Notes: a model not told the origin generated them from the letters alone. Positions 24,009-42,873 are shown, numbered from the stretch's first letter. The stretch: 45,403 bases of DNA from Escherichia phage ECBP5 (NC_027330.1), one strand, 5' to 3'. Numbers and translations are program-made.

Positions 24009-24030
24009 ATTAGGCACTACAATAGGAGAA
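24009..24030 (+). promoter_or_regulatory. Phage-RNAP promoter candidate (consensus copy) driving the capsid gene
   Basis: ATTAGGCACTACAATAGGAGAA. Confidence 0.6.
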
Positions 24031-34936: not shown

Positions 34937-35857
34937 ATGAACTTCTCTTTTACTCGTGATACTGGTGACGGAGTTAAGACAGTATTCACAATGTCCTTTG
35001 CAGGACAGGATGAGGGCTATTTGAATGCCTCTAATATTCACGTACTTGTTAATGGTGTAGAGGTTCCATTTACCATTAACCCAACTGACCCTAATAAGGT
35101 ATACCTATCAACTGCCCCAGCTAATGGGGCTGATGTCCTTATCAGGCGTATCATGCCTAAGAACGTGCCTTACTCTGACTTCAAGAACGGAAACCCATTT
35201 AGTCAGGATACGCTGAACTATACCCAGCTACAGCAGTTGTATGTGACACAAGAGCTACTTGATGGTTTCCTTCCAGATGGCTTCTACTTTAAGCAAGATG
35301 TCAACATGGGTGGTTATAACATCAAGAACTTGGGTGATGCTGTAGACCCTGATGATGCAGTTAAGAAAGAGGTAACTGATGATTTGGGTAATAGGGTAAG
35401 CTCTCTAGAAGATAATCTTACTGATACCTCGTTAACTACCGTTCCTTGGCGGTTTGTTGCAACTGGTGGAGAGATTACAATATCACCTCCTTACTCTTTC
35501 ACAAATGCCCTTCTCTACATCAATGGCGTTACACAGACCATAGGTGCAGATTATGCATACACAGTATCTGGTAATCAGCTACATCTACCTGAGCCACTAA
35601 GAGCTGGAGATGAGGTGTTTGTTATCATTGGAACCAACATACAGCCGCCTAGTGATTTAATCTCCTATGATGGGGCTATTATTGCATATGCGAGTATGGT
35701 GACTGGTGTACCTGTTCAGCAGGTCTATATACCTGTTGTTGGCCTCACCGTAAGTAACGCACTGGTTTTTATTGATAATGGCGTTATTCATACCCTTAAT
35801 GCACCTGCTAGCGGGGTTATCACTTCCATAGCTTGGCCTGATATTGTTATATCATAG
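34937..35857 (+). CDS. Tail fibre / adaptor protein with T7 gp17 N-terminal-like domain
   Basis: 306 aa; N-terminal segment pattern resembles the T7 gp17 tail-attachment domain. Confidence 0.7.
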   Translation: MNFSFTRDTGDGVKTVFTMSFAGQDEGYLNASNIHVLVNGVEVPFTINPTDPNKVYLSTAPANGADVLIRRIMPKNVPYSDFKNGNPFSQDTLNYTQLQQLYVTQELLDGFLPDGFYFKQDVNMGGYNIKNLGDAVDPDDAVKKEVTDDLGNRVSSLEDNLTDTSLTTVPWRFVATGGEITISPPYSFTNALLYINGVTQTIGADYAYTVSGNQLHLPEPLRAGDEVFVIIGTNIQPPSDLISYDGAIIAYASMVTGVPVQQVYIPVVGLTVSNALVFIDNGVIHTLNAPASGVITSIAWPDIVIS

Positions 35858-35865
35858 GAGGTAAC

Positions 35866-36099
35866 TTGATTCATGAGAAAGTAGGTGAGGTTGCAGCTGA
35901 AGCATTTAAGGCCACACCACCAACTGTTGTTGTTGGCCTGAACATCTTAGGTTACTCAATCTCTGAGTGGGTTCAGGTAGCTACACTTATCTATATCTTC
36001 TTACAGATGCATGTGCTAGCTATTAAGAATATAAGTTCATATAAATCCATGTGGGATTATGTTAAGGAGGTTATTCGTGGCAAGCGTAAGCAAGAGTAA
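35866..36099 (+). CDS. Class II holin (T7 gp17.5-like)
   Basis: 77 aa; TTG start after AGGAGG; hydrophobic SISEWVQVATLIYIFLQ resembles T7 gp17.5 SLNEWFYVAAIAYTVVQ; basic C-terminus. Confidence 0.6.
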   Translation: MIHEKVGEVAAEAFKATPPTVVVGLNILGYSISEWVQVATLIYIFLQMHVLAIKNISSYKSMWDYVKEVIRGKRKQE

Positions 36100-36403
36100 T
36101 AAGAATTCAGCCACAGAGGATGATGTAGGCCTTATCCATAAGCTTGTTACTAAGGTCATCACTAAGAAGCTTGAGAAGTGGTTAGAGCTTATTGAGCAGG
36201 GTGGTGACGTAGATTTAGTTGTGGATATGAAACAGCTCAAGTCTGCCATCGACTGGTGTGACAAGAATGGCATTGTATGTGCTGACCCAGCTGAGCAGAG
36301 TGACAATGAGCTTGGTGATAAACTGTCTGAGATTCGTAAAGCTCAACACGCTCGTGGTGTTGTCGTTCCATTCAAAGAGGATGAGGAGGGTTATGGTACA
36401 TGA
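36077..36403 (+). CDS. Terminase small subunit (T7 gp18-like)
   Basis: GTG start 6 nt after AAGGAGG; about 108 aa; directly upstream of and overlapping the large terminase gene. Confidence 0.6.
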   Translation: MASVSKSNKNSATEDDVGLIHKLVTKVITKKLEKWLELIEQGGDVDLVVDMKQLKSAIDWCDKNGIVCADPAEQSDNELGDKLSEIRKAQHARGVVVPFKEDEEGYGT

Positions 36404-38250
36404 GGCGTGTTAACAGGAACGACAAGAAAGCACAGCTAGAAATGTGGGAGGAGCTTGAAGCGATACAGAAAGCTTTTCCATTTACTGTGCAAGGCTTGTG
36501 GCTGTTTGCCTCACTTGTGCTTGAGAAGACTATTGTAGGCTCTCCTCACCTTAATCGCACACAGAAAGACATTCTTAGCTTCCTGCTTAACGGCGGGAAG
36601 TATATAGGCATACAGGCAAGCCGTGGTATGACCAAGACAGTTATGGCAGCTATCCTATGCTGCTTCTGTCTTATCCACATGCCACACTATCGTATCATTG
36701 TATTCTCACAGAACGGTAAGCGAGCTAAAGAGATTGCAGGCTGGGTAGTTAAAATCTTCTATGCTATAGACATCCTTGAGGTATTGCAGCCAGATACCTA
36801 TGCTGGCGACCGTTCATCCATTGAAGCTTTTGATATTCATTGGTGCTTCCGTGGTGCTGATAAGTCACCATCTGTCACCTGCTATTCTATCGAGTCAGGT
36901 GCGCAGGGTGCTCGTGCTGACCTTATCCTTGCTGATGATATTGAGTCGCTACAAAACTCCCGTACAGCTCAGAGCCGTGAGTGGCTGCTTGAGCAGTCAT
37001 TAGAGTTTGAGTCGATTAACCAGTATGGTCGTATCATCTATCTAGGTACACCTCAGGGTGTTGAGTCTATCTACAACACGCTTCCAGCTCGTGGCTACGT
37101 TATGCGTATCTGGCCTGGCCGTTATCCAACAGCTGAGCAGCTTGAGTTCTATGGCAATGCTCTGGCTCCATTATTCCGTAAGGATATTGAAGCTGACCCA
37201 AGCTTGCAAAGCGGTGGTGGGCTTGATGGTACTATGGGCAAGCCAACAACACCTGCTATGTATGATGAGGAGTTGTTGCAAGAGAAGGAGATGAGGCAAG
37301 GTCTTGCTAAGTTCATGTTGCAGTTCATGGTTCACACAGGTATGTCTGACCGTGACCGCTTCAAGCTTAAGCTAGAGAATCTGGTACTAATGAACTTCAA
37401 TGCCATGCAAGGTGCGGTTATGCCTGTGTGGAACAGTGACCAACGTAGCATGTGGCAAGCTGCCCCTCGCTTTGGTACACGTCCACAAGACAGGTTCTAC
37501 TTTGCTATGCAGCAGCCATATATCATGCGTGACTTTGACCTAACTGTTATGTTCATTGACCCAGCTGGTGGTGGCTCCCGCTCACAGGATGAGATGGGTT
37601 ATGCGATAACCAAGCTACTCGGTACTTATGTCTACATCTATGATGTTGATGGTGTCAAGGGTGGGTATGAACAATCAGAGCTGATGAAGCTTGTACAAGC
37701 TGCTAAGGATGCTAAGGTCAACGTTTGCTATGTTGAAAAGAACTATGGTAACGGTGCTCACTTTGCAATGCTTAAGCCACTGTTTGAGAAGTTTTACCCA
37801 GAGTGTAGGCTTGAGGAAATTAACTCAACAGGTCAGAAGGAACTACGTATCATCGATACACTAGAACCACTGCTGGGTCAGCATCGCTTGGTAGTATCAC
37901 AGACAGCTGTTATGAAGGACTACAACAGCATTCAGAAGTACCCAGCAGAGGTCAAGATGACTTACAGCTGCTTCTACCAACTTGCTCACATAACGAGCGA
38001 CCGTGGGGCGCTGAGGCACGATGACCGCTTAGACGCACTGGCTGGGGCTGTGGCGCAGATTGTCAACTACATCGACTATGACCAAGAGAAGGCCGAGAAA
38101 GACCGACAGGCGGAGGCTGACAAGCATTTCTTTGAGGTTATGGCTAACCCTAATGGTTTCGTCCACACGATGATGCACGGTGGTGATTTTATGAGCTATG
38201 TTGAGCAGCAAAACACCGGAGCCAACGCACTCAAGAAATACTTTAATTAA
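36400..38250 (+). CDS. Terminase large subunit (T7 gp19-like)
   Basis: 616 aa; position after holin/small subunit; ATPase-like LILADDIESL segment. Confidence 0.8.
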   Translation: MRRVNRNDKKAQLEMWEELEAIQKAFPFTVQGLWLFASLVLEKTIVGSPHLNRTQKDILSFLLNGGKYIGIQASRGMTKTVMAAILCCFCLIHMPHYRIIVFSQNGKRAKEIAGWVVKIFYAIDILEVLQPDTYAGDRSSIEAFDIHWCFRGADKSPSVTCYSIESGAQGARADLILADDIESLQNSRTAQSREWLLEQSLEFESINQYGRIIYLGTPQGVESIYNTLPARGYVMRIWPGRYPTAEQLEFYGNALAPLFRKDIEADPSLQSGGGLDGTMGKPTTPAMYDEELLQEKEMRQGLAKFMLQFMVHTGMSDRDRFKLKLENLVLMNFNAMQGAVMPVWNSDQRSMWQAAPRFGTRPQDRFYFAMQQPYIMRDFDLTVMFIDPAGGGSRSQDEMGYAITKLLGTYVYIYDVDGVKGGYEQSELMKLVQAAKDAKVNVCYVEKNYGNGAHFAMLKPLFEKFYPECRLEEINSTGQKELRIIDTLEPLLGQHRLVVSQTAVMKDYNSIQKYPAEVKMTYSCFYQLAHITSDRGALRHDDRLDALAGAVAQIVNYIDYDQEKAEKDRQAEADKHFFEVMANPNGFVHTMMHGGDFMSYVEQQNTGANALKKYFN

Positions 38251-38283
38251 TGGCAATAATCCCTTAGTTTTCATAACTTTGGG

Positions 38284-38305
38284 ATTAGGCACTACAATAG
38301 GAGAA
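38284..38305 (+). promoter_or_regulatory. Phage-RNAP promoter candidate (consensus copy)
   Basis: ATTAGGCACTACAATAGGAGAA followed by AGTAAG-repeat leader. Confidence 0.6.
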
Positions 38306-38422
38306 AGCTAAAGTAAGTACAGTAAGTAAACAGTAGCTATAAATAGCTATAGTAAGCTTTAGTTAGCCTAAGTAGTAACCTACTTATTGTCTTATTATAT
38401 TCTTTATAAGGAGAGCTATTAG

Positions 38423-39034
38423 ATGGCTACATATACCACCAGCATACTTAAGCTTATAAAAGGCTCTTTGTCTTCTGGTAAACTGCCTAAGGCTAACTCA
38501 CAAGGTGACTTAGTTGACTCTAAGTTAACTGATGATGGCACAAAGCTTGCTTACAATGGTAATGAAGTAACAGACTCTCGCACACAGCGTAAAAAGACTG
38601 AGGTCTATTACACTGGTGTTTCTGTTACTCTCACTGCGGGTACTCAGTACAATTTAGTAAACCTGTTAAAAGCTCTTACAGCAAACTCAGGTACACTTGC
38701 ACCATTCTTTGACACTACATCCAACAAACTCAAGGTTATTAATGATAATGCTAGTTGCATGTTCAAACTTAACCTAGTAGGCAACTGGGCGAACGCATCA
38801 TCAGATAGGAGTCTTCAGGTTGACTTTGTAGGAACAAACGGCAACAGGTTAGTTGCTAACAGGTCTTCAGCTACCACAGCTGATTCATTAACACTATCTA
38901 CTTTCTTATCTGTTGATAAGAATGGTAACTTAGCAACAAATGGCAGCACTGTTAACTTAACAGCTGTTGGTATCAACTTCACAATTACATCTGCGCTTCT
39001 TATTGCTGAGCAGGTAACTAAAGAATCTTTCTAA
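38423..39034 (+). CDS. Hypothetical late protein, Ser/Thr/Asn-rich (203 aa)
   Basis: AAGGAGAG RBS; own promoter upstream. Confidence 0.6.
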   Translation: MATYTTSILKLIKGSLSSGKLPKANSQGDLVDSKLTDDGTKLAYNGNEVTDSRTQRKKTEVYYTGVSVTLTAGTQYNLVNLLKALTANSGTLAPFFDTTSNKLKVINDNASCMFKLNLVGNWANASSDRSLQVDFVGTNGNRLVANRSSATTADSLTLSTFLSVDKNGNLATNGSTVNLTAVGINFTITSALLIAEQVTKESF

Positions 39035-39046
39035 GGAGATTAACAT

Positions 39047-39325
39047 ATGCCACGTAATATTACTGGTGATTCACCTAAGTCTGTACAAACTCAGTCCGTA
39101 TCTATGCTGCCAGTGGCTATTGTCACTCAGGCAAACTTGGCTAGCGCAGCTCACCCTATCAACGATACTACCAAGTCTGGCAAGCAAGTTGGTGGTCTGG
39201 TCTACGTTAAGCTGACTACTGGTGGTAATGTCTGCATCGCAATTGCTCAGGGTTCTGGCGCTACTGATAAGTGGCTGGTACTTGGCATGGATGCTGCTGG
39301 CTTCATTGAAGTAACACCAGCTTAA
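39047..39325 (+). CDS. Hypothetical protein (92 aa)
   Basis: AAGGAGA RBS. Confidence 0.55.
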   Translation: MPRNITGDSPKSVQTQSVSMLPVAIVTQANLASAAHPINDTTKSGKQVGGLVYVKLTTGGNVCIAIAQGSGATDKWLVLGMDAAGFIEVTPA

Positions 39326-39335
39326 TAAGGTTGGT

Positions 39336-39356
39336 CAGTCTAGTACGCTAGACTGG
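39336..39356. repeat. Palindrome family copy, terminator-like
   Basis: CAGTCTAGTACGCTAGACTGG followed by CCTCTTTCT. Confidence 0.6.
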
Positions 39357-39368
39357 CCTCTTTCTACT

Positions 39369-39926
39369 ATGAATACATTACTAATGCTACTTGCGTTAAT
39401 AAATCCTGTTCAGAAGTTAGAGCAAGATTTATCAAAGCACATAGAAATTTATACACACCAAGGAGGTTCCGAGTTGAATCGCAGTCAATTCCAGCGCTAT
39501 ATATTGCGCCCTACCCTTGAGAAGCTTGGTCTATACTCGCCACAAGCTGAGCGCTTGCTGACTATGATTGTAGCCCATGAATCTCTCAAGGGTCATTATA
39601 TTGTACAGACCACAGGGCAGGCTAAAGGCTTGTACCAGATGGAGAATGCAACACACGATGATGTGCTGCGTTGGGTTCACAATAACCGTCCTGAGCTTTA
39701 CCGTGAGATTGTAGAAATGGGTGATGGTCAGCCGTCAGCAGTTAAGATGATTACTGACTTAGACTATGCAACCGCTATGGCTCGCGCGTTCTTCCTCCGC
39801 TTTCCTGAGCCGTTGCCGACAGGCAACGACGAGGAGCTTGCAGCATACGCTAAGAAGCGCTGGAACACTCACTTAGGTAAGGCCACTCCTGACGACTACT
39901 TGAAGGCTTATCAGTCTTGGAAGTAA
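39369..39926 (+). CDS. Lytic transglycosylase-like protein (putative endolysin)
   Basis: AHESLKG...GQAKGLYQME fits the ES...GLxQ transglycosylase signature (compare T7 gp16 N-terminus TESRF...GPLGMMQF); short N-terminal hydrophobic stretch. Confidence 0.7.
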   Translation: MNTLLMLLALINPVQKLEQDLSKHIEIYTHQGGSELNRSQFQRYILRPTLEKLGLYSPQAERLLTMIVAHESLKGHYIVQTTGQAKGLYQMENATHDDVLRWVHNNRPELYREIVEMGDGQPSAVKMITDLDYATAMARAFFLRFPEPLPTGNDEELAAYAKKRWNTHLGKATPDDYLKAYQSWK

Positions 39927-40038
39927 GTTGCAGCAGCTGGTGTCAGCTTAAGTGGCAGGAGGCAGTTGAGTCAGGTGATGACTTAGCTGCCAGTGACTAT
40001 CTAAAGCTCTATGAGCTTTGGAGTAGCAGAGGTATGTA

Positions 40039-40353
40039 ATGAGTACAAGCAATATACCTAGCTTAGGTGGCTTCACTCCTATTGAGTCTCTTGTAAAAGG
40101 CGGTAGTGCTAAAGACATCTTCAATCCAATGAACATCTGGAATGATGGTGCAGGTGTATTACAGAAGCCATCGTCCTTGTTTACCAAGGAGACTATTACT
40201 GGAACAGGTAAGGACACTGAGAAGTCTCGTACTAAAGCTCAGGAAGAGGAAGATAGTGCTGCTGCTAAGCAAAGCTCTAGGGATGCTAACAAGTGGCTCA
40301 ACTGGACACCTAGTAGAAGTAGCACTAATACTAAAACTGGTTTATCTATTTAG
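40039..40353 (+). CDS. Hypothetical protein (104 aa)
   Basis: ORF with internal acidic patch. Confidence 0.5.
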   Translation: MSTSNIPSLGGFTPIESLVKGGSAKDIFNPMNIWNDGAGVLQKPSSLFTKETITGTGKDTEKSRTKAQEEEDSAAAKQSSRDANKWLNWTPSRSSTNTKTGLSI

Positions 40354-40361
40354 GAGTAATC

Positions 40362-40511
40362 ATGGGTAAGATTTTTAAGAATAAGAAAGTAGTAGCAGCT
40401 GCTGTTACCTTAGTTCTTGTCATCTTGGGTACAGCCCTAGGGACTGACTTGGGTGCAGATACTGCAAATAGCGTTACTGACCTTATCTGCACTATTGTAA
40501 GCTGTCAGTAA
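40362..40511 (+). CDS. Small membrane protein (49 aa)
   Basis: TAGGAG RBS; single hydrophobic helix VVAAAVTLVLVILGTALG; not in ORF track. Confidence 0.4.
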   Translation: MGKIFKNKKVVAAAVTLVLVILGTALGTDLGADTANSVTDLICTIVSCQ

Positions 40512-40720
40512 TGATTAAAGCTCTCCTTGAAGTTCTGGCAATCCTGCTCCGAGCTATTGAAAGGAAGCAAGTAAAAGAGGAGCAGCAAGATGCGCAAGCT
40601 GAAGCTGATCGTATTAGCACCAATCCTACTGAGTGGTTTAATGATCACTTCAGGGTGCGTACAGAGTCCAGCAAGACAGATGCCAGTAAAGCCAGCCCTG
40701 ACAACAGTCACACAAGTTGA
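40511..40720 (+). CDS. Putative i-spanin (Rz-like)
   Basis: N-terminal hydrophobic segment followed by charged helix; overlaps o-spanin candidate in another frame. Confidence 0.5.
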   Translation: MIKALLEVLAILLRAIERKQVKEEQQDAQAEADRISTNPTEWFNDHFRVRTESSKTDASKASPDNSHTS

Positions 40721-40799
40721 TGGTCAGATGTGCATGGATTTACAAGATGCAACTAAGTTGGGTTTGTACATACTAGGCCTTGAGCGCGGCTATCAGTAG
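40590..40799 (+). CDS. Putative o-spanin lipoprotein (Rz1-like)
   Basis: Signal peptide with lipobox-like LMITSGC, Pro-rich mature part; starts inside the i-spanin ORF in the +1 frame. Confidence 0.55.
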   Translation: MRKLKLIVLAPILLSGLMITSGCVQSPARQMPVKPALTTVTQVDGQMCMDLQDATKLGLYILGLERGYQ

Positions 40800-40855
40800 C
40801 CGCCTTATTACTCATAGCTATTCACAGTGAGTGGCTAGCAGTAATAGGAGATAAC

Positions 40856-42484
40856 ATGGCTAAACTTACAAGAGTAACGGACGCATTTGTGTACGTTAAG
40901 TCTAAATTAGCTGGAGCAATCCAGCGACTGTTAGAAGACAAGATGACTGACACTCTATCCATTAAGGATTTTGGTGCAGTCGGAGATGGTGTGCATGATG
41001 ACACAGATGCAATCATTGCAGCCTTCGCAGCTGCTAAGAACAAGTTTGGGGTCATTGCACCCTCAGGCCGTTATCGTGTAACCAGAGAGATTCCAGTCGA
41101 TTATGCACTGGTACTTATCGGGGAAGGTGGGAATGGCTTTAAGGGTACAAACTCAAGCCACAATCCATCGCCTCACTTTGGCACTACCTTTGTAAGTGAC
41201 ATGGCTAGTGGATACGTGTTCAATATCTCACCTGCTGCTTTCCAGTTTGGTCTTACCTTGCGTGACTTCTCTATCGAGCGTAACGAGTCATTAGGTATCA
41301 ACAATGCACGAGGTATGAGACTACATAATGTAGGGTGGACTGGTATCGTAGACAACGTGTGTATTGATGGCTTCTGGGAACATGGCTTGGTTATTGGTTA
41401 TATCCAAGATACACACTTCCGAGGCTGTACGGTATTACGTTGTGGTAATGAAGATGTGCCTAGTATTGAGATTGTTAATGACTCAAACTACGTATACTTC
41501 TTAAACTGCCATATCGAGTATTCTCCGTTCCTGTTCAAGAATACTGGCAATGCTTGGGAAGTTCACTTCACAAATAACCACTTTGAAGTTGCACAGTACG
41601 GCTCTAGCTCTGGTCTGCCTACCTTGAAGTATAAGCAAGCTCCGCTACAGCTTGGTGGTGGCAACATGGTTACTTTCAATACTTGTACAATTGTACCAGT
41701 ATCTGATGAGTATCTTCAGACTGCCCTTGGCATACCGTTTGACTCTTTACCATATTTCATTACTGGCTCGGGTTCATTCGTCAAGTTCATCAACTGCTCT
41801 GGTATTGCGCCAGAAGGTTCTGTCAGCTACATGTACCTAACAGGTACTGGTAATAAGGTACTTGGTGGCACATGGAAAGACATGACACCTAGGCGCCCTA
41901 GTATTGTCCTTGAAGATGGTGACATTGCTAATAACACATTAGCTATCCGTGTAGCTGCTGATGAGACAAAGCTGTACGGTGTCTTAGTCAATACTCGTGG
42001 CAAGATTACTGATAACTTGTTAACTGCATCAGGTACAGCGTCTACTACACGCAGAACTACTGGCATCCTTGTTGGATGTAGCCCTAGTGCGCCATTAGGA
42101 GCTGTTCAAGTTAGTGGTAACACTTATGACCTTGGTAATAGACCTAACCGCTATGTCTACCATCGTATTCAGATCAGTGGTCATGATGGAGGCTGCTCTT
42201 ACTTTGAGGGTATTAATGCCGCATTGTTTGACTTGGACTATGAGCTTTATAACCCTGCTGCAAACTTTGCTATGTGGAATACAACCTCATGGCAAGTGAC
42301 CAGTCAGGTCAATATGAATCCAGGACGTGTAGTAATGTTCCACGCAGGTGCAATAGCTGGATTTATTAATTACAGTGCATATGTAAAGAATGCTACGTTT
42401 AATAACCTTGCAGTAGAAGCTGGTGCATCTATTATGTACAAAGGCATCTCTGACGGTGAAGCAAGGATGTTCCAAGTTAAGTAA
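40856..42484 (+). CDS. Tailspike with pectate-lyase-like beta-helix domain (putative polysaccharide depolymerase)
   Basis: IKDFGAVGDGVHDDTDAIIAAF is a pectate-lyase-type beta-helix N-cap signature; 542 aa. Confidence 0.85.
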   Translation: MAKLTRVTDAFVYVKSKLAGAIQRLLEDKMTDTLSIKDFGAVGDGVHDDTDAIIAAFAAAKNKFGVIAPSGRYRVTREIPVDYALVLIGEGGNGFKGTNSSHNPSPHFGTTFVSDMASGYVFNISPAAFQFGLTLRDFSIERNESLGINNARGMRLHNVGWTGIVDNVCIDGFWEHGLVIGYIQDTHFRGCTVLRCGNEDVPSIEIVNDSNYVYFLNCHIEYSPFLFKNTGNAWEVHFTNNHFEVAQYGSSSGLPTLKYKQAPLQLGGGNMVTFNTCTIVPVSDEYLQTALGIPFDSLPYFITGSGSFVKFINCSGIAPEGSVSYMYLTGTGNKVLGGTWKDMTPRRPSIVLEDGDIANNTLAIRVAADETKLYGVLVNTRGKITDNLLTASGTASTTRRTTGILVGCSPSAPLGAVQVSGNTYDLGNRPNRYVYHRIQISGHDGGCSYFEGINAALFDLDYELYNPAANFAMWNTTSWQVTSQVNMNPGRVVMFHAGAIAGFINYSAYVKNATFNNLAVEAGASIMYKGISDGEARMFQVK

Positions 42485-42567: not shown

Positions 42568-42696
42568 ATGTTATCTAATCAAGAGTTATTAGAAAAGTTT
42601 GATGAACTTATGTCACATCTCAATAGTGAAGACAACAGTATGGCTGAGGAGTTCAGAATTAATCTAGAGGAAGTATTAGAGTATCTTGTAAGCTAG
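42568..42696 (+). CDS. Small acidic hypothetical protein (42 aa)
   Basis: GGAG RBS 8 nt upstream; helical acidic peptide; weak support. Confidence 0.3.
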   Translation: MLSNQELLEKFDELMSHLNSEDNSMAEEFRINLEEVLEYLVS

Positions 42697-42873
42697 CTAG
42701 GTAGCCATTAGTGGTTACTGTAAGCTGGCCTTGAAACTTAAAATAGGGTGGACAGTTACAGCAGTTCCCGCCGCCGCCAGCTTCAGCTTTCCCCCATCGG
42801 GGTGGCTGCTGGCAACCTCTTAGGCCGCAGGCAGTTAGAGGGGGGGTGGGTAGGCTGGCTAGGTAGCTGGCAG

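What the first reader, a model, noticed from the sequence alone, without database searches (positions are those of the whole stretch)
34937..42484. Two receptor-binding proteins: a short gp17-N-terminal adaptor fibre and a distal beta-helix tailspike
The 306-aa gene at the canonical fibre position has only a T7 gp17-like attachment domain plus a short C-terminal part. A 542-aa protein at the far end of the genome carries a pectate-lyase-type beta-helix signature (DFGAVGDGVHDDTDAI), typical of capsule or LPS depolymerases. This suggests a modular adaptor plus enzymatic tailspike, hence a polysaccharide-dependent host range.
Basis: partly seen in the sequence, partly recalled or inferred. Interest (0 to 1): 0.45.

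Follow-up and report, generated by a model that had tools for sequence, protein, structure and literature searches.

The report
Known adaptor plus tailspike of phage ECBP5
The window is the published coliphage ECBP5 (KBNP1315), whose short tail adaptor and separately encoded beta-helix tailspike form the two-part host-recognition device already described for SP6/K1-5-like phages, so the finding is correct but ordinary.

Summary
Both genes are real and sit at the stated coordinates. The window is the complete genome of Escherichia phage ECBP5 (= KBNP1315, KJ749827, genus Gajwadongvirus).

- **Adaptor (306 aa):** it has a T7 gp17-type N-terminal domain and one small beta docking domain homologous to the middle domain of K1-5 gp37. 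A 68-residue C-terminal domain is specific to its clade. It matches the solved tail adaptors of phages Kp7 and HRP29.
- **Tailspike (542 aa):** it is a confidently modelled right-handed beta-helix. Its first residues, MAKLTR, resemble the docking heptapeptide of K1-5 gp46. Residues 4-61 are 52% identical to the K1-5 endosialidase N-terminus. The body is a horizontally exchanged cassette, 33-36% identical to tailspikes of P22-like prophages, N4-like phages and Kuttervirus.

The adaptor-plus-spike reading is supported, but it is already in the literature (Lee 2015; Lukianova 2020; Leiman 2007). Enzymatic activity has not been tested for this protein.

It is a 203-aa mini-fibre carrying an Sf6-type knob (38423-39034), placed behind a late promoter identical to the one upstream of the gene at the major-capsid position. 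Its slot holds exchangeable fibre proteins in relatives. Its place on the virion is unknown.

The parts
34937..35857 (+). Tail adaptor protein, 306 aa (SP6/K1-5 gp37 family). It sits directly after the 1287-aa internal virion protein and before the holin.
   Evidence: PF03906 E 2.8e-15. phrog_2710 E 2e-112. PDB 7y22_e Kp7 'tail adaptor protein' E 6.6e-40 and 8es4_G HRP29 Gp44 E 2.4e-32. K1-5 gp37 37% identity, E 8e-54. 98% identical to PP99 orf45 'tail fiber adaptor protein'.
34937..35374 (+). Adaptor aa 1-146: T7 gp17-type N-terminal domain, which attaches to the tail at the gp11/gp12 junction in T7-like phages.
   Evidence: Pfam aa 4-146. Foldseek hits to T7 gp17 N-terminal structures 7boz, 7ey9, 8dsp and 8e4g.
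35432..35644 (+). Adaptor aa 166-236: small beta domain (T4 gp10-like / XD-like). This is the inferred docking platform for the spike's N-terminal peptide.
   Evidence: hhalign against the K1-5/SP6 gp37 middle domain: probability 99.8%, E 1.4e-28. Foldseek to CBA120 TSP4 N-terminal XD domains (7rfv, rmsd 2.7 A over 68 columns) and phage B2 Gp48/49 (9d84_B, TMt 0.75). phmmer to the same module in 8vbx, 9k4a and 9d83. pLDDT 84-92.
35651..35854 (+). Adaptor aa 239-306: C-terminal domain specific to Gajwadong-type 306/304-aa adaptors. Its role is unknown.
   Evidence: pLDDT 91-95 for aa 250-306. It is absent from the K1-5 and Kp7 alignments. hhalign to the K1-5 C-terminal domain gives probability 0.9%, and to its own middle domain 5%. 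Other homologues carry different C-termini.
40856..42484 (+). Tailspike, 542 aa: N-terminal docking peptide, neck, right-handed parallel beta-helix and a C-terminal beta domain.
40856..41038 (+). Spike aa 1-61: docking peptide MAKLTRVTD plus a helical neck and the first beta-helix cap (includes the DFGAVGDG motif).
   Evidence: aa 4-61 are 52% identical to K1-5 gp47 aa 2-59, E 3e-14. aa 4-90 match the N-terminus of the Kp7 fibre 7y5s. The first 5 residues equal K1-5 gp46 MAKLT. Nucleotide similarity to MR4 continues to 41010, while similarity to PP99 stops at 40853. aa 1-25 are disordered in the monomer model.
38284..38304 (+). Phage-RNAP (SP6-like) late promoter ATTAGGCACTACAATAGGAGA, the last one before the knob-to-spike gene block.
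   Evidence: Identical 21-mer at 24009-24029, upstream of the gene at the capsid position. 4 matches with up to 3 mismatches against 0 expected. 6 copies of the core sequence in the genome. Gene order.
38423..39034 (+). Knob mini-fibre, 203 aa: a conserved 16-aa N-terminus, one fibre-shaft repeat (aa 17-50) and an Sf6-type tail-needle knob domain (aa 50-197). Candidate third adsorption component.
39047..39325 (+). gp41-like 92-aa protein (phrog_2725, the family of K1-5 gp41/gp42). In relatives it is fused N-terminally to the knob domain.
   Evidence: phrog_2725 E 8.5e-30. K1-5 gp41/gp42 belong to the same PHROG, and fusion proteins exist in L008 (246 aa) and L010 (202 aa). No Pfam or PDB match.
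39333..39358 (+). Terminator-like hairpin after the knob and 92-aa gene pair.
   Evidence: 11-bp stem, 6 GC pairs. This is a consensus scan only.
40786..40803 (+). Terminator-like hairpin after the spanin genes, 53 nt upstream of the spike ATG. No phage promoter lies between it and the spike.

Best explanation
ECBP5 uses the two-component adsorption organelle of SP6/K1-5-like podophages.

**Adaptor.** Six trimers of the 306-aa adaptor are expected to bind the tail through the T7 gp17-type N-terminal domain (aa 1-146). A short helix follows (aa 144-159). It leads to a single T4 gp10/XD-like beta domain (aa 166-236), which serves as the docking platform.

**Spike.** The 542-aa tailspike is encoded 5 kb downstream as the last late gene. 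It docks non-covalently through its extreme N-terminus, MAKLTR. This belongs to the motif class x-x-[LFS]-T-[RK]-x-[TK], shared by all terminal spikes in this clade and by the K1-5 gp46 heptapeptide MAKLTKP. The rest of the spike is a trimeric right-handed beta-helix that binds, and probably cleaves or modifies, a surface polysaccharide of the APEC host. The O-antigen is the most likely target.

**Host-range switching.** The spike body is a horizontally swapped cassette, so exchanging it on a constant adaptor changes the host.

**Shown here:** the homologies, the domain plan, the fold, the synteny and the cassette boundaries.

**Inferred:** the copy numbers, the physical docking site, trimerisation, the catalytic activity and the identity of the receptor.
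For: - **Identity of the window:** exact ECBP5 proteins. ECBP5 = KBNP1315 = KJ749827.
- **Adaptor:** PF03906. K1-5 gp37 at 37% identity over aa 1-235, E 8e-54. Kp7 adaptor 7y22_e and HRP29 gp44 by sequence and by fold. The middle domain matches the K1-5 gp37 middle domain at 99.8% hhalign probability. Gene order is the same as K1-5/SP6 gp36-gp37-gp38.
- **Spike N-terminus:** 52% identical to K1-5 gp47 and matching Kp7 7y5s. All clade spikes start with [LFS]-T-[RK].
- **Conserved groove residues:** invariant polar residues cluster at aa 134-259 across 31 homologues that are 29-94% identical (mostly 33-37%). They include D137, D185, N211, E221, H242 and E244.
- **Cassette exchange:** the adaptor is 98% identical to PP99's, yet the spikes are unrelated. 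Nucleotide identity to PP99 ends 3 nt before the spike ATG. Body homologues carry P22 head-binding (PF09008), Kuttervirus TSP-N (PF18668) or T7 gp17-N (PF03906) anchors instead.
- **Literature:** the adaptor with hepta- and undecapeptide docking (Leiman 2007, as summarised in PMC6872550). The PP99 two-component spike and gp55 deacetylase (PMC6989608). KBNP1315 ORF56 as a tail spike (PMC4640515).
Against: - No virion proteomics, structure or enzymology exists for ECBP5, so assembly and activity rest on homology.
- The docking site is ambiguous. In K1-5 the gp47-type N-terminus is said to bind the C-terminal part of gp37. The ECBP5 adaptor C-terminus is unrelated to that part, while the spike neck is gp47-like.
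- The N-terminal 25 residues are unmodelled.
- The beta-helix fold alone does not prove catalysis. Structural neighbours include the non-enzymatic adhesin PfbA and epimerases.
- No close solved homologue fixes the catalytic residues. The best sequence identity to any PDB chain is about 20%.
Confidence: 0.85

Rival explanations
1. The system is three-component. Besides adaptor and spike, the 203-aa knob mini-fibre (38423-39034) is a virion protein. It docks on the tail, for example on the clade-specific adaptor C-terminal domain (aa 239-306), and contacts a second receptor. ECBP5 would then be a dual-receptor phage. This extends the main explanation rather than excluding it.
For: - The Sf6-type knob domain is a distal tail-tip module (PF16532 E 1.4e-44; 3rwn E 3.8e-42).
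- The N-terminus carries a fibre-shaft repeat, duplicated in the 243-244-aa variants.
- The gene lies directly behind a late promoter identical to the one upstream of the gene at the capsid position.
- In L008 and L010 a knob protein occupies the second-tailspike slot right after the spike.
Against: - There is no evidence that the protein is in virions.
- The co-occurrence follows phylogeny and may simply reflect shared ancestry.
- No similarity was found between the knob N-terminus and the spike docking peptide.
- The PP99 authors proposed a single receptor.
Confidence: 0.3
2. The knob protein and the gp41-like proteins are capsid or neck decorations (head fibres), not tail receptor-binding proteins.
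For: - The gp41-like domain is fused either to the knob (L008, L010) or to an Ala-rich tail with a weak phi29 head-fibre hit (PF11133) in L012.
- HRP29, which has a homologous adaptor, carries novel decoration proteins according to its PDB title and literature (recalled).
- The promoter is shared with the gene at the capsid position, which suggests high copy number.
Against: - The PF11133 hit is weak.
- The 92-aa protein has no PDB match, including the HRP29 chains.
- In every characterised case (Sf6, HS1) the knob domain sits at the tail tip.
Confidence: 0.15
3. The 542-aa beta-helix only binds polysaccharide, or modifies it (for example by epimerisation or deacetylation), and does not depolymerise it.
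For: - The spike of sister phage PP99 deacetylates the O-antigen rather than cleaving it.
Against: - Invariant carboxylates and histidines lie on consecutive rungs (D137, D185, E221, H242, E244) across distant homologues. This is typical of catalytic grooves.
- Most neighbours are lyases or hydrolases.
- There is no SGNH/GDSL domain, unlike PP99 gp55.
Confidence: 0.2
4. The 306-aa protein is itself a short tail fibre that binds a receptor through its C-terminal domain, and the spike attaches elsewhere.
For: - It has a well-folded C-terminal domain of unknown function (pLDDT above 90).
- Homologues end in various tip-like domains or are much longer (506-769 aa in Nufs112 and 6939 according to PMC9915841).
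Against: - The adaptor is more than 90% identical among phages isolated on Escherichia, Pectobacterium, Pseudomonas, Klebsiella and Vibrio. That is incompatible with it determining host specificity.
- The spike lacks any other anchor domain.
- Homologous adaptors in the Kp7 and HRP29 structures carry the spikes.
Confidence: 0.05

Closest known systems
K1-5 / K1E / SP6 gp37 adaptor with gp46 and gp47 tailspikes (Leiman et al. 2007; Tu 2017; Gebhart 2017; summarised in PMC6872550)
   Same: - The gene order is the same: internal virion protein, adaptor, holin, terminase, then the spike at the right end.
- The adaptor is 37% identical over aa 1-235.
- The middle docking domain is homologous (99.8% hhalign probability).
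- The spike N-terminus MAKLT equals the start of the gp46 heptapeptide, and aa 4-61 are 52% identical to gp47.
   Different: - ECBP5 has one terminal spike, not two.
- Its adaptor has only one XD-like domain. The second, paralogous C-terminal domain of gp37 (K1-5 middle against C-terminal, 95% hhalign probability) is replaced by an unrelated 68-aa domain.
- The spike body is neither an endosialidase, nor a K5 lyase, nor P22-like.
- An extra knob-protein gene follows the terminase, where K1-5 and SP6 have only gp41/gp42.
Pectobacterium phage PP99 orf45 adaptor + gp55 tail spike (Lukianova et al. 2020, PMC6989608)
   Same: Same genus. The adaptor is 98% identical. Synteny is identical, including the knob and 92-aa genes. 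The paper states the two-component spike and compares PP99 with ECBP5.
   Different: The PP99 spike is an SGNH/GDSL O-antigen deacetylase (PF13472) with no detectable sequence similarity to the ECBP5 beta-helix. Only the [LS]-T-[KR] start is shared.
Klebsiella phage Kp7 tail adaptor (PDB 7Y22 chain e) and tail fibre gp52 (7Y5S / 7XYC)
   Different: The adaptor C-terminus differs. The fibre body differs and carries an intramolecular chaperone domain according to the literature. The host is Klebsiella and the target is capsule.
Shigella phage HRP29 gp44 adaptor (PDB 8ES4)
   Same: The adaptor is homologous (E 2.4e-32, aa 24-239). It is a T7-like tail carrying separately encoded beta-helix tailspikes.
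   Different: The HRP29 spikes are of the P22/Sf6 type. The HRP29 adaptor is shorter (260 aa) and lacks the ECBP5 C-terminal domain.
Sf6 gp9 / HS1 tail-needle knob (PDB 3RWN, 4K6B), for the neighbouring 203-aa protein
   Same: The knob domain (aa 51-197) matches at E 3.8e-42, with about 56% identity in the printed alignment.
   Different: There is no P22 gp26-type coiled-coil needle. [quoted passage not shown]
Tailspikes of P22-like prophages, N4-like FSL SP-076 and Kuttervirus SS9
   Same: The beta-helix body (aa 16-542) is 33-36% identical, E 1e-68 to 1e-81, with conserved groove residues.
   Different: Their N-terminal anchors differ: PF09008 head-binding, PF18668, or long N4-type N-termini. 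Their substrates are unknown.

Membership tests
SP6/K1-5 gp37-type tail adaptor | N-terminal T7 gp17-like tail-attachment domain | tested here: met
   PF03906 aa 4-146, 56.8 bits against a cutoff of 25.2. Foldseek hits to T7 gp17 N-terminal structures.
SP6/K1-5 gp37-type tail adaptor | T4 gp10-like / XD-like branching domain after the anchor | tested here: met
   hhalign 99.8% to the K1-5/SP6 gp37 middle domain. Foldseek to the CBA120 TSP4 N-terminal XD domains and B2 gp48/49.
SP6/K1-5 gp37-type tail adaptor | Two paralogous docking domains (D2 and D3) for two spikes | tested here: not met
   Only one XD-like domain is present. The C-terminal 68 aa show 0.9% hhalign probability to the K1-5 C-terminal domain and 5% to the protein's own middle domain.
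SP6/K1-5 gp37-type tail adaptor | About 300 aa, with no distal receptor-binding or enzymatic domain | tested here: met
   306 aa with no other Pfam domain. The protein is more than 90% conserved across phages of five host genera.
SP6/K1-5 gp37-type tail adaptor | Gene position between the internal virion protein (gp36) and the holin/terminase | tested here: met
SP6/K1-5 gp37-type tail adaptor | Physically carries the spike on the virion | not testable with these tools
   Needs cryo-EM, pull-down or proteomics. It is shown only for the homologues Kp7 and HRP29 (PDB titles) and K1-5/K1E (literature).
Adaptor-bound tailspike (K1-5 gp46/gp47 class) | Short conserved N-terminal docking peptide in place of an anchor domain | tested here: met
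   MAKLTR compared with the K1-5 gp46 heptapeptide MAKLTKP. aa 4-61 are 52% identical to gp47. The clade-wide motif is [LFS]-T-[RK]. There is no PF03906, PF09008 or PF18668 domain.
Adaptor-bound tailspike (K1-5 gp46/gp47 class) | Gene at the right end of the late region, with the body exchanged between relatives | tested here: met
Right-handed parallel beta-helix polysaccharide enzymes (pectate-lyase-like superfamily, PF12708) | Right-handed parallel beta-helix fold | tested here: met
   [not shown]
Right-handed parallel beta-helix polysaccharide enzymes (pectate-lyase-like superfamily, PF12708) | Catalytic acidic residues in the groove | tested here: inconclusive
   D137, D185, E221, H242 and E244 are invariant or nearly so in 31 homologues. 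They were not mapped onto a characterised active site.
Right-handed parallel beta-helix polysaccharide enzymes (pectate-lyase-like superfamily, PF12708) | Depolymerising activity on host capsule or LPS; homotrimer | not testable with these tools
   No biochemical data exist for ECBP5. The KBNP1315 paper reports only the HHpred similarity.
Sf6-type tail needle knob (PF16532), for the neighbouring 203-aa protein | Knob domain | tested here: met
   PF16532 at 152 bits against a cutoff of 27. 3rwn E 3.8e-42.
Sf6-type tail needle knob (PF16532), for the neighbouring 203-aa protein | P22 gp26-like N-terminal coiled-coil needle that plugs the portal channel | tested here: not met
   The N-terminus is 50 aa with one shaft repeat. 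The needle Pfam domains seen in the 288-323-aa prophage homologues are absent.

The most novel reading that the evidence does not exclude
Gajwadongviruses may carry an unrecognised third adsorption component. It would be a small, highly expressed mini-fibre built from a 16-aa anchor, one or two shaft repeats and an Sf6-type knob.

The mini-fibre may dock on the clade-specific C-terminal domain of the adaptor, which replaces the second docking domain of K1-5 gp37. That would give a polysaccharide-spike plus knob dual-receptor system on a T7-like tail.

By the gene-fusion argument, the gp41/gp42 family, which has no assigned function in SP6-like phages, would be the partner or anchor of this fibre.
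Probability: 0.3. Interest if true: 0.45.

Novelty: already known. Interest (0 to 1): 0.18.

Why it matters
The adaptor-plus-spike design explains a striking pattern. Near-identical phage chassis (adaptors more than 90% identical) have been isolated on Escherichia, Pectobacterium, Pseudomonas, Klebsiella and Vibrio. Only the terminal spike cassette changes between them. This is useful for engineering host range, but it is established knowledge.

The part that is not established is the role of the conserved knob mini-fibre and of the gp41-like proteins. If they are virion components, current single-receptor models for this genus, and spike-swap engineering based on them, would be incomplete.

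Tried and rejected
1. **Shared docking peptide between knob and spike.** BLASTP of the knob protein against the spike N-terminus found no similarity (E 0.24). The idea was dropped.
3. **Different docking sites for ECBP5 and PP99.** I first thought ECBP5 used an undecapeptide site and PP99 a heptapeptide site on the same adaptor. I set this aside for two reasons. The adaptor has only one XD-like domain. All clade spikes share one [LFS]-T-[RK] motif, with intermediates such as L014 LTRPK.
4. **Adaptor C-terminal domain as a degenerate copy of the middle domain, or a homologue of the K1-5 gp37 C-terminal domain.** hhalign gave probabilities of 5% and 0.9%. Not supported.
5. **PDB search with the 92-aa gp41-like protein.** Nothing was found.
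6. **Pfam and PHROG scans of proteins carrying the shaft repeat.** These were largely uninformative. One protein hit a tail-fibre PHROG and one gave a weak PF03906 hit.
7. **Sigma-70 promoter scan.** Matches were not enriched: 12 found against 14.3 expected.
8. **Literature search for 'needle knob' in Autographiviridae.** No relevant paper was found.
9. **PDB id search for the Kp7 structure paper.** The paper is not in the library.

Full report
**What the window is.** The three proteins in question are exact matches to GenBank entries of Escherichia phage ECBP5, on a 45403-bp contig. They are AID17699.1 'tail fiber protein', AID17711.1 'tail protein' and AID17703.1 'tail needle knob'. ECBP5 is phage KBNP1315, accession KJ749827, isolated on an avian pathogenic E. 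coli. It belongs to the genus Gajwadongvirus in the Autographiviridae. Its closest relatives in the phage collection are Pectobacterium phage PP99, Pseudomonas phage MR4, Vibrio phage JSF38 and several Klebsiella phages, at 90-94% nucleotide identity over most of the genome.

**Observation.** Both ORFs exist as described.
- The 306-aa protein carries the T7 gp17 N-terminal domain at aa 4-146 (PF03906, E 2.8e-15), followed by about 160 further residues.
- The 542-aa protein contains DFGAVGDGVHDDTDAI at aa 38-53, inside a PF12708 match (E 2.3e-10).
- The DNA after the spike matches the early region of PP99. The spike is therefore the last late gene, and 'far end of the genome' is right.
- The interval between the two genes is not part of the device. 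It holds the holin, TerS, TerL, a knob protein, a 92-aa gene, the endolysin, a 104-aa gene and the spanins.

**The adaptor.**
- It is 37% identical to K1-5 gp37 over aa 1-235 (E 8e-54).
- It matches two solved tail adaptors: Kp7 7y22_e (E 6.6e-40) and HRP29 gp44 (E 2.4e-32). These are also the top fold matches, followed by T7 gp17 N-terminal structures.
- An alignment of 30 homologues and an AF2 model give a four-part plan: the anchor domain (aa 1-146), a helix (aa 144-159), a small beta domain (aa 166-236) and a confident C-terminal domain (aa 239-306).
- By hhalign, the middle domain is homologous to the K1-5/SP6 gp37 middle domain (99.8%). In K1-5 the middle and C-terminal domains are paralogues of each other (95%).
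- The ECBP5 C-terminal domain resembles neither of them (0.9% and 5%).
- ECBP5 therefore has one XD-like docking domain plus a clade-specific C-terminal domain of unknown role.

**The spike.**
- The AF2 model is confident (pLDDT 89.7; aa 1-25 disordered) and forms a right-handed beta-helix with a C-terminal beta domain.
- No close solved homologue exists.
- Full-length relatives (53-94% identical) sit on contigs of about 45 kb.
- At 33-36% identity the same body occurs behind other anchors: P22 head-binding domains in E. coli, Salmonella, Citrobacter and Morganella prophages; Kuttervirus TSP N-domains; N4-like phages; and even fused directly to a gp17 N-domain.
- This host spectrum points to O-antigen rather than capsule as the target. 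That is an inference.
- Invariant polar residues cluster on consecutive rungs (D137, D185, N211, E221, H242, E244). This is compatible with a conserved active site, but I could not map them to a characterised mechanism.

**Docking.**
- According to Leiman et al. 2007, as summarised by Latka et al. 2019, K1-5 gp46 binds the middle of gp37 through the heptapeptide MAKLTKP. K1-5 gp47 binds the C-terminal part through the undecapeptide MIQRLGSSLVK.
- The ECBP5 spike begins MAKLTRVTD, and aa 4-61 are 52% identical to gp47 aa 2-59.
- The adaptor of PP99 is 98% identical to that of ECBP5. Yet PP99 gp55 is unrelated by BLAST, even at its N-terminus. It begins MGYSTKPKT, which resembles K1-5 gp46 (13 of 24 identical).
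- Listing the spikes of all related genomes read here resolves this. Every one starts with x-x-[LFS]-T-[RK]-x-[TK], and intermediates such as LTRPK occur in L014.
- With only one XD-like domain available, the most economical model is a single docking site that recognises a peptide of about 7 residues. This site assignment is an inference.
- The nucleotide breakpoints fit a cassette model. Similarity to PP99 ends 3 nt before the spike ATG. Similarity to MR4 ends at codon 52.

**Prior knowledge.**
[quoted passage not shown] It compares PP99 with ECBP5 and shows that gp55 deacetylates the O-antigen.
- A 2023 paper noted that ECBP5, PP99 and MR4 have tail-fibre proteins more than 90% identical despite different hosts.

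**What was missed: the knob protein.**
- Right after TerL there is a phage promoter (38284-38304), identical to the one upstream of the gene at the capsid position.
- Behind it lies a 203-aa protein. Residues 51-197 are an Sf6-type tail-needle knob (PF16532 E 1.4e-44; 3rwn E 3.8e-42).
- Its N-terminus has a conserved 16-aa start and one copy of a repeat of about 35 aa. The repeat occurs up to 19 times in long proteins from metagenomes (66 hits; sequences).
- The repeat is duplicated in the 243-244-aa variants.
- In relatives with other adaptor C-termini (L008, L010), the knob is fused to a gp41-like domain and lies directly after the spike, in the position of the second spike of K1-5.
- In ECBP5 the gp41-like 92-aa gene follows the knob gene, and a terminator-like hairpin closes the pair.
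- These facts make the knob protein a credible virion fibre. Whether it sits on the adaptor, elsewhere on the tail or on the head is open. A weak phi29 head-fibre hit on a gp41-like fusion protein in L012 keeps the head option alive.

**Verdict.** I set interest low (0.18). The only open, modestly interesting lead is the knob mini-fibre and its gp41-like partner as a possible third adsorption component. I put its probability at about 0.3.

Noticed in passing
window 38284-39358: A late promoter, the knob mini-fibre gene, a gp41-like 92-aa gene and a terminator-like hairpin form a compact unit. The promoter 21-mer is identical to the one upstream of the gene at the capsid position (24009-24029).
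   Followed up: yes
[not shown]
   Followed up: partly
L008 11597-12337; L010 17348-17956; L012 13312-13761; window 39047-39325: The gp41-like domain (phrog_2725, mis-named 'acetyl-CoA acetyltransferase'; it includes K1-5 gp41 and gp42) occurs in three forms: alone, fused to the knob domain, or fused to an Ala-rich tail with a weak phi29 head-fibre hit. This suggests it is a virion-anchoring module.
   Followed up: partly
window 38471-38572 (knob protein aa 17-50): A repeat of about 35 aa (..IPK....G.L.DS.L.DDGT.L.Y.G) is present in 1-19 copies in long, unannotated proteins of up to 4574 aa from metagenomes. It matches no Pfam family. It is probably an undescribed fibre-shaft repeat.
   Followed up: partly
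window 35651-35854 (adaptor aa 239-306): This is a confidently folded C-terminal domain, specific to Gajwadong-type adaptors. It replaces the second docking domain of K1-5/SP6 gp37. Other homologues end in quite different tips, for example ...SAPVGSLYLRxDG..LYVKESG..GWV.
   Followed up: partly
L001 10679-10909 (PP99 orf56); L014 16716-16946; L015 16498-16722; window 42569-42697: Relatives carry a small gene with a Tad2-like Pfam hit (PF11195) immediately after the spike. ECBP5 has only an unrelated 42-aa ORF at that position.
   Followed up: no
window 6159, 13419, 14616, 14762, 24014, 38289: There are six copies of the phage promoter core GCACTACAATAGG, all on the + strand (0.09 expected by chance). 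No such promoter lies directly upstream of the tailspike.
   Followed up: partly
[not shown]
   Followed up: no
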